DNA from: a virus
DNA: 38,403 nucleotides
UHGV virus genome: UHGV-0824332
Strand: one strand, 5' to 3'
Position numbers and translations under genes: made by a program. Below, piece by piece: positions 5,234 through 6,589 of this stretch. Positions within the stretch are counted from its first letter, which is position 1, and each line of letters begins with the position of its first letter. The notes below the pieces were generated by a model that made no database searches, was not told where the DNA came from, and saw only the letters and a list, made by a program, of their open reading frames with translations.

Positions 5234-5248
5234 TTACCTTTCAGGTAA
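5234..5248. promoter_or_regulatory. Operator site B, TTACC-TTTCA-GGTAA
   Basis: Perfect TTACC-N5-GGTAA palindrome in the divergent tailspike/ant intergenic region. Confidence 0.5.
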
Positions 5249-5285
5249 TTTGCAAAACGTGCTGGATAGCAAACAAATTATTTGC

Positions 5286-5305
5286 TACTGTATAAATATA
5301 CAGTT
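5286..5305. promoter_or_regulatory. LexA (SOS) box TACTGTATAAATATACAGTT overlapping the -10 region of the 5311 gene
   Basis: CTGT-N8-ACAG with AT-rich spacer, 18/20 match to the LexA consensus, ends 6 bp before the ATG at 5311. Confidence 0.6.
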
Positions 5306-5310
5306 ATTGC

Positions 5311-5583
5311 ATGGAGAAGATTAAGATGCAGCAGTATCACTATCCACTGGAAGACGGATTTACCGAAAGGATTCACACGCCGGGAGGCGTCAGGTCACTG
5401 GTGGAGGGATCGCACTTGATGAAATTACTCCGGGATCTCGATAAGGATGGATTTAATGTCGATGGCCCACTTGCCGAACTGACTGCACTGATTAACTACG
5501 TCACCAGCTCACAGATGTCTATGCAGGATCTGCAAACACATCTCGACTATTGTGCCGAACAATTACGAAAGCAAACCAGATAA
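5311..5583 (+). CDS. Small antirepressor-like protein (standalone Ant C-terminal-type domain)
   Basis: 90 aa; C-terminal region parallels the C-terminus of the 5897 antirepressor (LMKLLRDLDKDGFNVDGPLAELT...DLQTH versus LMNLLNQLQEDGHDVSGAAAELT...DIQTH). Confidence 0.6.
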   Translation: MEKIKMQQYHYPLEDGFTERIHTPGGVRSLVEGSHLMKLLRDLDKDGFNVDGPLAELTALINYVTSSQMSMQDLQTHLDYCAEQLRKQTR

Positions 5584-5614
5584 GGTTTGCAATTACCAAG
5601 TGGAGTGCTTATAT

Positions 5615-5629
5615 TTACCTTTGCGGTAA
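5615..5629. promoter_or_regulatory. Operator site B2, TTACC-TTTGC-GGTAA
   Basis: Perfect family palindrome between the two ant-like genes. Confidence 0.5.
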
Positions 5630-5664
5630 ATTTACATCGCACTCCTCTTGTGCCATAGTAATCA

Positions 5665-5742
5665 GGCACTGGCAAAATCCAGTGCCGGGATTGGTCTCCC
5701 GGATTACTACAGAGGCACATATGCCGCATAAGCGGTTTTTTT
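5665..5742 (+). terminator. Tandem hairpins ending in a U-tract terminator between the two ant-like genes
   Basis: Perfect stems GGCACTGG/CCAGTGCC (5665-5686) and CCGGGA/TCCCGG (5685-5702), then CCGC-ATAA-GCGG plus 7 T (5724-5742). Confidence 0.4.
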
Positions 5743-5896
5743 ATGTGTAAAGCGCACCTATTCTATGGTGGGCTGTGTGGGGGCACCGAAAGGTGCGCCG
5801 GGTTCCTTTGTAGCCGGTAAGACCAACTCTGCACAGTTCACCACCATCTGATTGGTCTCAGCGGTGGTGATTAACCTAACTACAAAGGTGATCGCC

Positions 5897-6589
5897 ATGA
5901 ATACCAAACCTTCCATCTTTTCCTTTGAGTCATCCTGCCAGATCCGTATGTTCATGATTGACGGAGAACCTTGGTTTGTCACCAAAGATGTGTGCAATGC
6001 TTTGAATATTGATGTTACACAAGCGAGAAAACTTGATAAAAAAGGCTGGAACAAAAAGGGGCTGTATTCAATACAGACCCCTGGTGGAATACAAGAACTA
6101 TCCATCGTTTCAGAATCAGGTCTCTACATCCTTATTCTGCGTTGCAAAGAGGCAATGACAGAGGGAACGAGAGCATTCAGATTTCTTGAATGGGTTACAG
6201 GTGAGGTTCTTCCTCAGATCCGCCGCACCGGAAGTTACATTAAAAACTCGCTCCCGCAGGAAGAACGCATAAAGATGGTTGCCGACCAGGTAGCCAACGC
6301 CACGGCGTCAGCAGTAATGCAGGCGATGAAGATAGAGAACAAAACCTACAGTGCCCCACTGAAGCCCGGCTACCGTAGCCTGATTCATTCGCCGTCTGGT
6401 GTTCTCGGCCTGACGGAGAACTCACTGCTGATGAATTTGCTGAACCAGTTACAGGAAGACGGGCATGACGTATCGGGCGCGGCGGCGGAACTGACCACCA
6501 TGTTCTGCTACATCGTTGGTGTGAGCAAATGCCTGCGTGATATCCAGACTCACGCGGAGTACATCAACGACAAAGCAGGATTCTTCTGA
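5897..6589 (+). CDS. Antirepressor with N-terminal BRO-N/KilA-N-like domain and Ant C-terminal domain
   Basis: ATG at 5897 preceded by AAGGTG; N-terminal FMIDGEPWFVTKDVCNALNI is BRO-N-like; C-terminal domain shared with the 5311 protein. Confidence 0.8.
   Translation: MNTKPSIFSFESSCQIRMFMIDGEPWFVTKDVCNALNIDVTQARKLDKKGWNKKGLYSIQTPGGIQELSIVSESGLYILILRCKEAMTEGTRAFRFLEWVTGEVLPQIRRTGSYIKNSLPQEERIKMVADQVANATASAVMQAMKIENKTYSAPLKPGYRSLIHSPSGVLGLTENSLLMNLLNQLQEDGHDVSGAAAELTTMFCYIVGVSKCLRDIQTHAEYINDKAGFF

What the first reader, a model, noticed from the sequence alone, without database searches (positions are those of the whole stretch)
5234..6589. SOS-linked antirepressor module paired with a non-cleavable tandem-HTH repressor
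A near-consensus LexA box (TACTGTATAAATATACAGTT, about 5286-5305) overlaps the promoter of a 90-aa gene whose sequence parallels the C-terminal domain of the downstream BRO-N antirepressor. The CI-like repressor has no S24 autopeptidase domain, so induction probably works through LexA-derepressed antirepressor binding, as in Gifsy/Fels-type and coliphage 186 Tum systems. Here the same promoter region also carries repressor-type operators B and B2, implying dual control. The shared C-terminal domain is a candidate repressor-binding module.
Basis: partly seen in the sequence, partly recalled or inferred. Interest (0 to 1): 0.6.

Follow-up and report, generated by a model that had tools for sequence, protein, structure and literature searches.

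The report
SOS-controlled phage antirepressor plus RNA-gated paralogue

Summary
TACTGTATAAATATACAGTT (5286-5305) is the only LexA box in the window, matching the consensus at 18 of 20 positions, with none in shuffles. It covers the inferred -10 of an 85-aa gene. That gene starts at 5326, not 5311, and is 88% identical to Ant of Salmonella phage SPC32H, whose complex with its repressor is solved (PDB 5D50). The window's repressor (32922-33506) is the Rep homologue, with two HTH-type domains and no S24 peptidase.

The window is a phiV10/epsilon15-like (Uetakevirus) coliphage. The LexA -> Ant -> Rep circuit is therefore a member of an already characterised system.

The last ~80 residues of the BRO-N protein (5897-6589) are indeed an Ant domain (42% identity, E 6e-16).

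The C4 loops pair with the BRO-N gene's ribosome-binding site and covary with their targets in relatives. This is P1 immI / Gifsy-1 isrK-type control.

'B2' sits at that operon's promoter, not at ant's. B and B2 belong to a family of about 13 TTACC-N5-GGTAA sites that includes five around rep.

The system is ordinary in kind. The composite wiring is modestly new.

The parts
5234..5248 (.). Operator-like palindrome 'B', TTACCTTTCAGGTAA
   Evidence: Exact match to TTACC-N5-GGTAA. The half-sites are invariant and the 5-bp spacer is variable in 11 Uetakevirus phages. The equivalent site in epsilon15 is annotated 'protein_bind repressor'. Binding by Rep is inferred, not shown.
5263..5291 (+). Inferred ant promoter: TGGATA (5263-5268), 17 bp, TACTGT (5286-5291)
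   Evidence: CTGGA.A and TAC/TGT are conserved blocks in alignment A1. The consensus scan did not report this promoter, so it is an inference from conservation.
5286..5305 (.). LexA box TACTGTATAAATATACAGTT
   Evidence: It is conserved in position in 11 phages. The SPC32N variant carries a point mutation in the homologous box.
5326..5583 (+). ant: 85-aa antirepressor, orthologue of SPC32H Ant (Shine-Dalgarno GGAG at 5313-5316)
   Evidence: PDB 5D50 chain E, E 4e-47, about 88% identity. tblastn to SPC32H 'ant' gives 88% identity. It has no Pfam family and matches phrog_450.
5587..5615 (+). Promoter-like site TTGCAA-17-TATATT, whose -10 abuts B2
   Evidence: A TTGnnn / TTATnA pair recurs at this position in most of 7 relatives even where the upstream context differs.
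5615..5629 (.). Operator-like palindrome 'B2', TTACCTTTGCGGTAA
   Evidence: The half-sites are invariant in all 7 phages that carry the isrK/C4 cassette, with a variable spacer and unrelated DNA upstream. The Gifsy-1 and Stx-phage versions of the cassette lack it.
5631..5659 (+). IsrK promoter: TTTACA-17-(TG)cCATAGT, predicting a start near 5666
   Evidence: It is intact in 6 of 7 relatives (-10 invariant; phiV10 has lost the -35). The predicted start coincides with the 5' end of the Rfam isrK match.
5666..5742 (+). IsrK small RNA, carrying the a1/b1 target-like loops (b1 TTGGTCT at 5691-5697) and an intrinsic terminator (stem 5723-5736 plus T run)
   Evidence: RF01394 scores 74.7 bits against a gathering score of 50. 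RF03163 c4-a1b1 scores 38.4 bits over 5653-5705, below its gathering score of 46.7.
5761..5848 (+). C4-type antisense RNA (a' CCTTTGTAG at 5805-5813; b' AGACCAA at 5820-5826)
   Evidence: RF01695 scores 78.6 bits against a gathering score of 45. 6 of 27 pairs show compensatory changes among 6 homologues.
5852..5888 (+). C4 targets on the BRO-N mRNA: b2 TTGGTCT (5852-5858) and a2 CTACAAAGG (5880-5888), the latter overlapping the Shine-Dalgarno AAGGTGA
   Evidence: The complementarity to b' and a' is exact. Three different b1/b'/b2 triplets and an a'/a2 co-deletion are seen among 7 phages.
5897..6589 (+). BRO-N / Ant-domain fusion protein, 230 aa (Bro-N residues 16-106; Ant-like domain residues 149-225, nt 6341-6571)
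   Evidence: Pfam Bro-N at E 1.8e-13. The C-terminus matches 5D50_E at E 9e-14 and the window's own Ant at E 6e-16. It is 81% identical overall, and 100% identical from residue ~108, to vB_EcoP_ZX5 ORF4. Overexpression of that protein lowered lysogen titres from 1e9 to 1e6 (PMC9782041).
32922..33506 (+). rep: 194-aa repressor with an N-terminal HTH plus a second HTH_3-type domain and no S24 peptidase
   Evidence: PDB 5D50 chain A at E 3.5e-42. 43% identical to SPC32H Rep. Pfam results.
32804..32866 (.). Operator-like sites in the rep / cro-like intergenic region (32804-32818 and 32852-32866; a weaker copy lies between them)
   Evidence: SPC32H has three such sites in the same place.

Best explanation
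The window is a phiV10/epsilon15-like temperate podophage. Region 5234-6589 is its antirepressor ('immI-like') region and contains two units in tandem.

Unit 1 is the SPC32H-type switch. Host LexA sits on the box at 5286-5305, over the -10 and start of the ant promoter. DNA damage removes LexA and the 85-aa Ant is made. Ant binds the C-terminal part of the non-cleavable repressor Rep (32922-33506) and takes it off its TTACC-N5-GGTAA operators. Homology of every component and of the box position is shown here. Binding is inferred from the SPC32H work.

Unit 2 is a portable RNA-gated antirepressor cassette of the P1 c4-ant / Gifsy-1 isrK-anrP type. A promoter pair flanks a Rep-type operator (B2). 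It is followed by the terminated small RNA IsrK, which carries the a1/b1 loops. Read-through RNA then folds into the C4 antisense RNA. The a' loop of C4 pairs with the ribosome-binding site (a2) of the BRO-N gene, and its b' segment pairs with b2, keeping that gene untranslated. IsrK can compete for C4 and relieve the block. The RNA genes, the complementarity and its covariation are shown here. The direction of regulation is inferred from P1 and Gifsy-1.

The protein made by unit 2 carries an Ant-homologous C-terminal domain. It is therefore most likely a second, delayed Rep-directed antirepressor (inferred, with support from the ZX5 overexpression result).

Ant has no terminator of its own, so SOS-induced ant transcripts should run into the IsrK terminator. 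This would couple the two units (inferred).
For: Phage identity: megablast to EC.W1-9, phiV10, TL-2011b and ZX5.

LexA box: unique and near-consensus. Its position is conserved in 11 phages. One of the two SPC32H/SPC32N differences lies in the box.

Ant: 88% identical to the crystallised SPC32H Ant.

Rep: homologous to 5D50_A and lacks S24.

Secondary descriptions of the SPC32H mechanism: tetrameric Ant binds two Rep dimers and breaks the DNA-binding tetramer, and the Rep C-terminal domain mediates the Ant interaction.

Co-occurrence: in the phage collection the Rep C-terminal part, Ant and the Ant-like domain occur in 36, 35 and 34 records, largely the same phage records (36, 35, 34).

RNAs: isrK and C4 score above Rfam gathering thresholds. 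The same pair is present upstream of the antirepressor-like gene in 6 relatives and absent from SPC32H, epsilon15, BUCT554 and BUCT711. The C4 stem shows compensatory changes. There are three covarying b1/b'/b2 triplets, and a'/a2 lies over the Shine-Dalgarno sequence.

B2 and the promoters are conserved as part of the cassette.

Gifsy-1 precedent: IsrK in trans activates translation of the downstream antirepressor-like gene 140-fold (PMC4825925). The APSE paper cites Citron and Schuster 1990 for c4 as regulator of ant; the P1/P7 c4 mechanism is otherwise from my memory.

Domain modularity: the Ant-like domain occurs alone (95-97 aa), fused to Bro-N, and fused to AntA PF08346.

Function of the fusion protein: ZX5 ORF4 has an identical C-terminal half. 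Overexpressing it cut lysogens about 1000-fold.
Against: No binding or expression data exist for this phage. I could not read the two primary SPC32H papers. The details of LexA and Rep action there rest on secondary citations, on the deposited records and on my memory.

The consensus scan did not pick up the ant promoter. It is inferred from conservation only.

B lies about 57 bp upstream of the inferred start, which is not a classical repression position.

Rep is only 43% identical to SPC32H Rep while Ant is 88% identical. Cognate binding is therefore likely but not guaranteed.

The a1 loop of IsrK pairs only weakly with a', and the c4-a1b1 match is below its gathering score.

There is no icd/orf45-type coupled upstream ORF. 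The 28-aa ORF inside C4 stops 45 nt before the BRO-N start.

The ZX5 experiment used GST-tagged overexpression and did not test Rep binding.
Confidence: 0.78

Rival explanations
1. The BRO-N/Ant-domain protein is not a second antirepressor of this phage's Rep. Its Ant-like domain could serve mainly for oligomerisation. It could also co-assemble with Ant to modulate it, since Ant is described as a tetramer. The protein could instead act on other prophages' repressors or on DNA through Bro-N.
For: The two Ant-like sequences are only 42% identical. The residues invariant across both forms could be structural. Ant is described as a tetramer. Gifsy antirepressors act on non-cognate repressors (PMC3121763).
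Against: The Ant-like domain is confined to phages that carry a Rep-type C-terminal domain. ZX5 ORF4, with an identical C-terminal half, lowers lysogeny when overexpressed. The domain is attached to two unrelated N-terminal domains and also occurs alone, as expected of the functional module.
Confidence: 0.15
2. The TTACC-N5-GGTAA sites, including B and B2, are not operators through which Rep controls ant or the BRO-N operon. They could be bound by the Cro-like protein or another regulator. B could also serve the divergent tailspike promoter rather than ant.
For: No binding data are available. The 'repressor' label in the epsilon15 record is an annotation, not an experiment. B is about -57 from the inferred ant start. 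It is about -69 from a conserved TAGAAT on the minus strand upstream of the tailspike gene. Sites also occur upstream of the small terminase gene and in other places not typical of early operators.
Against: Three sites lie in the rep / cro-like intergenic region, and paired sites bracket strong early promoters on both sides of rep, in this phage and in SPC32H. Half-sites are invariant while spacers and flanks drift. The Uetakevirus version of the isrK cassette has the site where the Gifsy-1 and Stx-phage versions do not.
Confidence: 0.2
3. The LexA box is a chance or vestigial palindrome, and ant is controlled by something other than the SOS response.
For: No direct test has been done in this phage. 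The Klebsiella relatives have ATGT in place of CTGT in the left half-site.
Against: The box matches the consensus at 18 of 20 positions, with zero matches in shuffles. It is conserved in position across four host genera. A point mutation in the homologous box is one of only two differences between SPC32H and SPC32N.
Confidence: 0.03

Closest known systems
Salmonella phage SPC32H Rep / Ant / LexA antirepression system (Kim and Ryu 2013, J Virol 87:11775; Kim et al. 2016, PNAS 113:E2480; PDB 5D50, 5D4Z)
   Same: Same phage genus. Ant is 88% identical, Rep is homologous along its full length and lacks S24. The LexA box is at the same position upstream of ant, and a TTACC-N5-GGTAA site lies upstream of the box. 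The operator half-sites are the same genome-wide.
   Different: Rep is only 43% identical. In SPC32H, ant stands alone and is followed by a hairpin that looks like its own terminator (sequence read). SPC32H has no isrK/C4 RNAs and no BRO-N/Ant-domain gene.
Phage P1/P7 immI operon (c4 antisense RNA - icd - ant1/2)
   Same: A C4-family RNA is encoded upstream of an antirepressor gene on the same transcript. Its two exposed segments pair with two target boxes, one of which covers a ribosome-binding site. a1/b1-like copies lie upstream. Specificity variants covary, as between P1 and P7. From memory, the P1 operon promoter also carries a C1 operator (Op51), analogous to B2.
   Different: There is no icd-like coupled ORF, so the a2 box covers the antirepressor gene's own ribosome site. 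I did not compare the antirepressor protein with P1 Ant. The phage type and repressor are unrelated to those of P1.
Gifsy-1 isrK - orf45 - anrP locus (Hershko-Shalev et al. 2016, PMC4825925)
   Same: The layout is the same: IsrK with its terminator, a read-through transcript, and a C4-like region upstream of an antirepressor-like gene. The RNA region is alignable at the DNA level.
   Different: AnrP shows no similarity to the BRO-N/Ant-domain protein. The orf45 stop overlaps the anrP start in Gifsy-1, whereas here the small ORF ends 45 nt upstream. Gifsy-1 has no TTACC-N5-GGTAA site at the promoter. The locus sits next to the Q antiterminator gene rather than next to a LexA-controlled ant.
LexA-controlled small antirepressors GfoA/GfhA/GftA (Gifsy phages), Tum (186) and AntC (N15)
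   Same: The logic is the same: the repressor is not cleaved, and a LexA-repressed gene outside the immunity region encodes a small protein that binds the repressor (PMC3121763).
   Different: No sequence relationship was detected. Ant has no Pfam family and no DinI/Tum-type hit. The repressors are of different families. These systems are analogues, not relatives.
Escherichia phage vB_EcoP_ZX5 ORF4 'anti-repressor' (PMC9782041) and phiV10 gp23 'putative anti-immunity protein'
   Same: These are the same gene at the same locus. ZX5 ORF4 is 81% identical overall and identical from residue ~108 to the end. ZX5 Ant is 100% identical to the window's Ant.
   Different: The ZX5 paper has no occurrence of 'LexA' or 'SPC32H', and the ZX5 record labels ant 'hypothetical protein' and the C4 region 'ash family protein'. 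In phiV10 the BRO-N gene is split into 194 and 29 aa and the IsrK -35 is deleted.

Membership tests
SPC32H-type Rep/Ant/LexA antirepression system | Small Ant protein homologous to SPC32H Ant | tested here: met
   5D50_E at E 4e-47, about 88% identity over 83 aa. tblastn to KC911856 'ant' gives 88% identity.
SPC32H-type Rep/Ant/LexA antirepression system | Rep homologue with an N-terminal HTH and a C-terminal Ant-binding/tetramerisation part, and no S24 autopeptidase | tested here: met
   5D50_A at E 3.5e-42 over residues 1-190. 5D4Z (the C-terminal fragment) at E 3.6e-20. No Peptidase_S24 hit at E up to 1.
SPC32H-type Rep/Ant/LexA antirepression system | LexA box at the ant promoter | tested here: met
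   The box at 5286-5305 aligns column for column with the SPC32H box. The SPC32N variant is mutated in that box.
SPC32H-type Rep/Ant/LexA antirepression system | Physical binding of LexA to the box and of Ant to Rep, and SOS-dependent induction | not testable with these tools
   Needs EMSA, pull-down and induction assays.
P1/P7 immI (c4 - icd - ant) | C4-family antisense RNA upstream of the antirepressor gene | tested here: met
   RF01695 at 78.6 bits against a gathering score of 45, full-length match. The stem shows compensatory changes.
P1/P7 immI (c4 - icd - ant) | a'/b' segments complementary to downstream a2/b2, with one target over a ribosome-binding site | tested here: met
   a' pairs with a2 over 9 bp, covering AAGG of the Shine-Dalgarno sequence. 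b' pairs with b2 over 7 bp. Both covary in 7 phages.
P1/P7 immI (c4 - icd - ant) | Upstream a1/b1 copies | tested here: inconclusive
   b1 is exact and covaries. a1 pairs with a' over only about 5 bp, by my reading of the sequence. RF03163 scores 38.4 bits, below its gathering score of 46.7.
P1/P7 immI (c4 - icd - ant) | icd-type ORF translationally coupled to ant | tested here: not met
   The only ORF is 28 aa (5765-5851), lies inside C4 and ends 45 nt before the BRO-N ATG.
Gifsy-1 isrK-orf45-anrP | IsrK small RNA with an intrinsic terminator upstream of the C4-like region | tested here: met
   RF01394 at 74.7 bits against a gathering score of 50. Terminator at 5723-5736 plus T run.
Gifsy-1 isrK-orf45-anrP | AnrP-type downstream protein, and an orf45 stop overlapping its start | tested here: not met
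   blastp of the BRO-N protein and of Ant against AnrP gave no hit. There is no AUGA overlap.
BRO-N domain proteins (PF02498) | Bro-N domain above the Pfam threshold | tested here: met
   51.4 bits against a cut-off of 25.6, residues 16-106.
P22 Ant (P22_AR_N, PF10547) | P22_AR_N domain above the Pfam threshold | tested here: not met
   17.7 bits against a cut-off of 30.7.
186 Tum / Gifsy GfoA-type antirepressors | Sequence homology to Tum (DinI-like half) or GfoA/GftA | tested here: not met
   The Pfam scan of Ant gave no DinI-type or any other family above threshold. I made no direct pairwise comparison with GfoA or Tum.

The most novel reading that the evidence does not exclude
The two antirepressor genes form one feed-forward induction circuit.

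- SOS-induced ant mRNA ends at the IsrK terminator, so it delivers the a1/b1 'anti-antisense' sequence as its 3' end.
- Ant strips Rep from B2 and opens the IsrK/C4/BRO-N promoter.
- Together these overcome C4 and switch on a second, Ant-domain antirepressor that makes induction irreversible.
- In a lysogen the resident C4 RNA blocks the same gene on incoming homologous phages.

The three b'/b1/b2 specificities seen among relatives would then define RNA-based immunity groups within Uetakevirus.
Probability: 0.3. Interest if true: 0.5.

Novelty: new member of a known kind. Interest (0 to 1): 0.3.

Why it matters
Biologically, the window shows two classical ways of controlling an antirepressor placed back to back in one small phage. 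One is transcriptional control by LexA. The other is translational control by a C4/IsrK RNA pair. Both feed the same protein domain towards the same repressor. This gives a compact system for asking how SOS input is converted into an irreversible lytic decision.

Practically, the region or parts of it match 542 of 5,426 complete E. coli genomes, and 117 carry at least 80% of it in one place. In those records Ant is labelled 'hypothetical protein' and the RNAs are unannotated or translated as an 'ash family protein'. Recognising them improves prediction of which E. coli prophages respond to DNA-damaging antibiotics. It is also relevant when phiV10-type phages are used as reporter or therapeutic phages.

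Tried and rejected
Primary papers. I tried to read both SPC32H papers by DOI and by PMC id. Neither is held, so the operator sequences and the mapped ant promoter could not be checked against them.

Promoter scan. The consensus scan did not report an ant promoter. I considered TTGCAA (5250-5255) as the -35 and rejected it, because it is not conserved in the Klebsiella relatives.

RNA duplex prediction. RNAduplex-style folding of C4 against its targets unfolded everything and was uninformative. I replaced it with an exact-complementarity search restricted to the exposed C4 core.

Homology search with Ant. This returned only 85/86-aa orthologues. Searching with the C-terminal domain was needed to find the fusions.

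Gifsy-1 AnrP and Stx-phage PA28 antirepressor. I tested whether either shares the Ant-like domain. Neither does.

Third Ant-like copy. Some relatives have three places matching Ant. The window has only two.

Second LexA box. I looked for one near the BRO-N operon and found none. The other two CTGT-N8-ACAG hits, at 19797 and 24339, have GC-rich spacers and lie elsewhere.

Structure prediction. I did not run it, because the sequence-level match to 5D50 is already decisive.
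Full report
WHAT THE WINDOW IS

The region 5130-6700 matches phiV10-like E. coli podophages at 91-98% identity. These include EC.W1-9, TL-2011b, vB_EcoP_ZX5 and phiV10, of the genus Uetakevirus, the epsilon15 group. The first 25 kb of the window matches the same phages.

Most large ORFs, including the tailspike and lysis genes, lie on the minus strand. The finding lies in a short plus-strand island between the tailspike gene (2814-5129, minus strand) and an internal virion protein gene.

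THE OBSERVATION

- LexA box. TACTGTATAAATATACAGTT is at 5286-5305. It differs from the 20-mer consensus at two positions. It is the only match in the window at up to three mismatches, and no shuffle produced one.
- Downstream ORF. It is real, but its start is better placed at ATG 5326 (85 aa) than at 5311. GGAG at 5313-5316 is conserved in all eleven relatives aligned. The 5311 ATG is missing in the Klebsiella phages. The SPC32H gene and crystal chain begin at the second ATG.
- BRO-N protein (5897-6589, 230 aa). It has a Bro-N domain at residues 16-106. Its residues 149-222 align with Ant at 42% identity, E 6e-16.
- Repressor (32922-33506). It has HTH_3 matches in two stretches and no S24 peptidase.

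UNIT 1 IS THE SPC32H SYSTEM

The small protein is about 88% identical to the 'Anti-repressor protein' chain of PDB 5D50 (E 4e-47) and to the gene annotated ant in Salmonella phage SPC32H. The repressor matches the 'Repressor' chain of the same entry over its whole length (E 3.5e-42; 43% identity).

Papers that I could read describe the SPC32H mechanism as follows. Rep binds DNA as a tetramer. Tetrameric Ant binds two Rep dimers and breaks the tetramer. The C-terminal domain of Rep mediates both tetramerisation and Ant binding. I could not obtain the primary papers.

Two pieces of independent sequence evidence support the LexA link.

- The box occupies the same alignment columns upstream of ant in eleven phages from Escherichia, Salmonella, Enterobacter and Klebsiella.
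- The deposited genomes of SPC32H and its variant SPC32N differ at only two positions. One converts ACAG to AAAG in the box. From memory, the 2013 paper attributes the clear-plaque phenotype of SPC32N to this change.

The same alignment shows a conserved TGGATA 17 bp upstream of the TACTGT of the box. I take this pair as the ant promoter, so LexA would cover the -10 and the start site. This is an inference. The consensus scan did not report it.

THE OPERATOR-LIKE SITES

TTACC-N5-GGTAA occurs 19 times at up to two mismatches, against 0.74 expected. There are about 13 distinct sites.

- Sites lie in the rep / cro-like intergenic region.
- Pairs 62 bp apart flank or overlap promoter-like TTGACA/TTGATT hexamers that I read in the flanking sequence (not scanned with the promoter tool), at 33564/33626 and at 30459/30521.
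- Two sites lie just upstream of the small terminase gene.
- Three sites lie in the island studied here: B at 5234-5248, B2 at 5615-5629, and a third at 6662-6676.

SPC32H has the same motif in the same places, including upstream of ant. The epsilon15 GenBank record annotates these sites as repressor-binding.

In the eleven-phage alignment the half-sites of B are invariant (apart from GGTGA in phiV10 and TL-2011b), while the 5-bp spacer and the flanks vary. That pattern is expected of a protein-binding site.

Rep is the obvious candidate, but no binding data were available to me. B is centred about 57 bp upstream of the inferred ant start. B could equally serve the divergent tailspike promoter or act as a looping anchor.

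The 313 bp between the two protein genes is not a plain spacer. Rfam finds three things there, all on the plus strand.

- isrK at 5666-5742: 74.7 bits against a gathering score of 50.
- A C4 antisense RNA at 5761-5848: 78.6 bits against a gathering score of 45.
- The c4-a1b1 target motif at 5653-5705: 38.4 bits, below its threshold.

A promoter-like site, TTTACA-17-(TG)cCATAGT at 5631-5659, predicts a start at about 5666, which is exactly the 5' end of the isrK match. The isrK terminator is at 5723-5736 plus a T run.

The same RNA pair precedes the antirepressor-like gene in phiV10, TL-2011b, EC.W1-9, Tyrion and two Klebsiella phages. It is absent from SPC32H, epsilon15, BUCT554 and BUCT711, which have ant alone.

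Several observations support a working antisense system.

- The C4 fold is supported by compensatory changes in 6 of 27 pairs among six homologues.
- The exposed C4 loop CCTTTGTAG (5805-5813) is exactly complementary to CTACAAAGG (5880-5888), which overlaps the Shine-Dalgarno sequence of the BRO-N gene.
- The single-stranded AGACCAA (5820-5826) is complementary both to TTGGTCT just downstream of C4 (5852-5858) and to the second hairpin loop of IsrK (5691-5697).
- Among seven phages there are three different versions of this three-way match: TTGGTCT, TTGGCGT and TTGAGAC. In each version the C4 segment changes in step.
- phiV10 and TL-2011b carry a matching one-base deletion in both a' and a2.

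This is the logic of the P1/P7 immI operon, where C4 blocks antirepressor synthesis. It is also the logic of the Gifsy-1 isrK-orf45-anrP locus. There, read-through of the IsrK terminator gives an untranslated mRNA, and IsrK supplied in trans activates translation of the downstream gene 140-fold (PMC4825925).

The cassette is widespread. 225 phage records match it at the DNA level, including Stx phages, Gifsy-1 and APSE-1. It is attached to unrelated antirepressor-type genes. Gifsy-1 AnrP and the Stx-phage PA28 protein show no similarity to the BRO-N protein here.

WHERE B2 BELONGS

B2 lies after the ant stop codon. It sits between a promoter-like TTGCAA-17-TATATT (5587-5615), whose -10 abuts it, and the IsrK promoter, whose -35 starts two bases after it.

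In all seven cassette-bearing Uetakeviruses the B2 half-sites are invariant. The IsrK promoter is also intact, except that phiV10 has lost the -35. This holds even where the DNA upstream is unrelated because other genes are inserted between ant and the cassette.

The Gifsy-1 and Stx-phage versions of the cassette have no such palindrome. The site therefore looks like a genus-specific addition that puts the cassette under the control of whatever binds TTACC-N5-GGTAA. From memory, the P1 immI promoter region likewise carries a C1 operator (Op51).

THE SHARED DOMAIN

- In the phage collection the Ant-like C-terminal domain is found in 34 records, Ant in 35, and the C-terminal part of Rep in 36. 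These are largely the same phage records.
- In the large protein collection the domain occurs alone (95-97 aa), fused to Bro-N, and fused to an unrelated AntA domain (PF08346). The AntA fusion sits in an early-operon position next to int in another guaA-integrated prophage.
- vB_EcoP_ZX5 ORF4 is 81% identical to the window's BRO-N protein and identical from residue ~108 onwards. When it was overexpressed during infection, lysogen titres fell from 1e9 to 1e6 (PMC9782041).

That paper has no occurrence of 'LexA' or 'SPC32H', and the ZX5 record does not annotate ant or the RNAs.

HOW IT MOST LIKELY WORKS

In the lysogen, three blocks operate.

- LexA blocks ant.
- The site-binding protein, probably Rep, sits at B2.
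- Any BRO-N mRNA that is made is silenced by C4 pairing over its ribosome site.

DNA damage removes LexA, and Ant is made. Ant dissociates Rep.

ant has no terminator of its own, so its transcripts should extend to the IsrK terminator and carry the b1 loop. Loss of Rep from B2 should raise IsrK and read-through transcription. IsrK-type RNA can then compete for C4 and allow translation of the second Ant-domain protein.

The components and complementarities are shown here. The order of events and the sign of each interaction are inferred from SPC32H, P1 and Gifsy-1.

COMPARISON AND NOVELTY

Unit 1 is a member of the SPC32H system in every feature I could test. Gifsy GfoA/GftA, 186 Tum and N15 AntC work alike but are not related in sequence.

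Unit 2 meets the RNA criteria of the P1 immI and Gifsy-1 isrK families. It fails the criteria of a coupled icd/orf45 ORF and of a related antirepressor protein.

The genes are already in public phage records, and one of them has been tested by overexpression. Three points appear not to have been pointed out before:

- the BRO-N protein ends in an SPC32H-Ant domain;
- that protein is gated by an IsrK/C4 pair with covarying specificities;
- the cassette carries a Rep-type operator and follows directly on a LexA-controlled ant.

I therefore rate the finding as a new member of a known kind with a modestly new combination of parts, and give it an interest of 0.3.

Noticed in passing
window 5765-5851 (+): A 28-aa ORF lying entirely inside the C4 RNA hits Pfam Phage_ASH (E 1.7e-4). 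The ZX5 record annotates an 'ash family protein' at the same place. The protein family may rest partly on translated C4/CI-type RNA genes.
   Followed up: partly
window 5326-5583 versus 32922-33506: Ant is 88% identical to its SPC32H orthologue. Rep is only 43% identical overall and 41% identical in the Ant-binding C-terminal part. The antirepressor is far more conserved than its presumed target.
   Followed up: partly
window 6662-6676 (palindrome); 6703-7484 (+) genes: A third exact TTACC-N5-GGTAA site lies after the BRO-N gene and in front of three small plus-strand genes for membrane or secreted proteins, which are likely morons. About 25 bp upstream of it repeats the sequence upstream of site B (AGACTG...GAATAGA).
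   Followed up: no
window 30459-30473 / 30521-30535 and 33564-33578 / 33626-33640; L004 35972/36034 and 33604/33666: Operator-like sites come in pairs exactly 62 bp apart, centre to centre. They bracket early promoters in both this phage and SPC32H. This is suggestive of a tetramer contacting two sites.
   Followed up: no
window 26937-26969: Two adjacent TTACC/GGTAA-type palindromes sit immediately upstream of the small terminase start and cover its ribosome site. epsilon15 and SPC32H have one at the same place. Their role there is unclear; they could be operators or part of packaging recognition.
   Followed up: no
window 5177-5205: The block TTCTATTACC..AACC.ATATG is invariant in 11 phages between the tailspike start and site B. 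On the minus strand it reads ...GGTAATAGAAT. This is a good -10 (TAGAAT) without a good -35, and is possibly an activator-dependent tailspike/lysis promoter.
   Followed up: no
L001 (phiV10) 3766-4445 and about 3500-3530: In phiV10 the BRO-N/Ant-domain gene is split into 194-aa and 29-aa ORFs, and the TTTACA -35 of the IsrK promoter is deleted. The cassette may be decaying in that phage.
   Followed up: partly
L002 (EC.W1-9) 2977-3892; L012 (TL-2011b) 2780-3868: Other phages carry minus-strand insertions between ant and the B2/isrK cassette. The junction after ant is an insertion hot spot, and the coupling of ant read-through to IsrK is not universal.
   Followed up: no
L009 1795-2052 (Klebsiella phage ST512-KPC3phi13.3 Ant): The stand-alone Klebsiella Ant shares the block DGHDVSGAAAEL with the BRO-N-fused domains rather than with E. 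coli and Salmonella Ant. This suggests recombination between the two paralogues.
   Followed up: no
window 349-365 (-); 24147-24223 (+): There is a single copy of the attP core ATTGAGTGGGAATGATT reported for ZX5, phiV10 and epsilon15. There is also a tRNA-Arg(TCT) gene on the strand opposite to the structural genes.
   Followed up: no
L017 3501-4031 (E. coli GCA_008389095.1): An AntA (PF08346) protein ends in the same Ant-like domain, 100% identical over the last 54 residues. It sits at the end of the early-left operon next to int and guaA in another prophage. The domain moves between N-terminal partners and between loci.
   Followed up: partly
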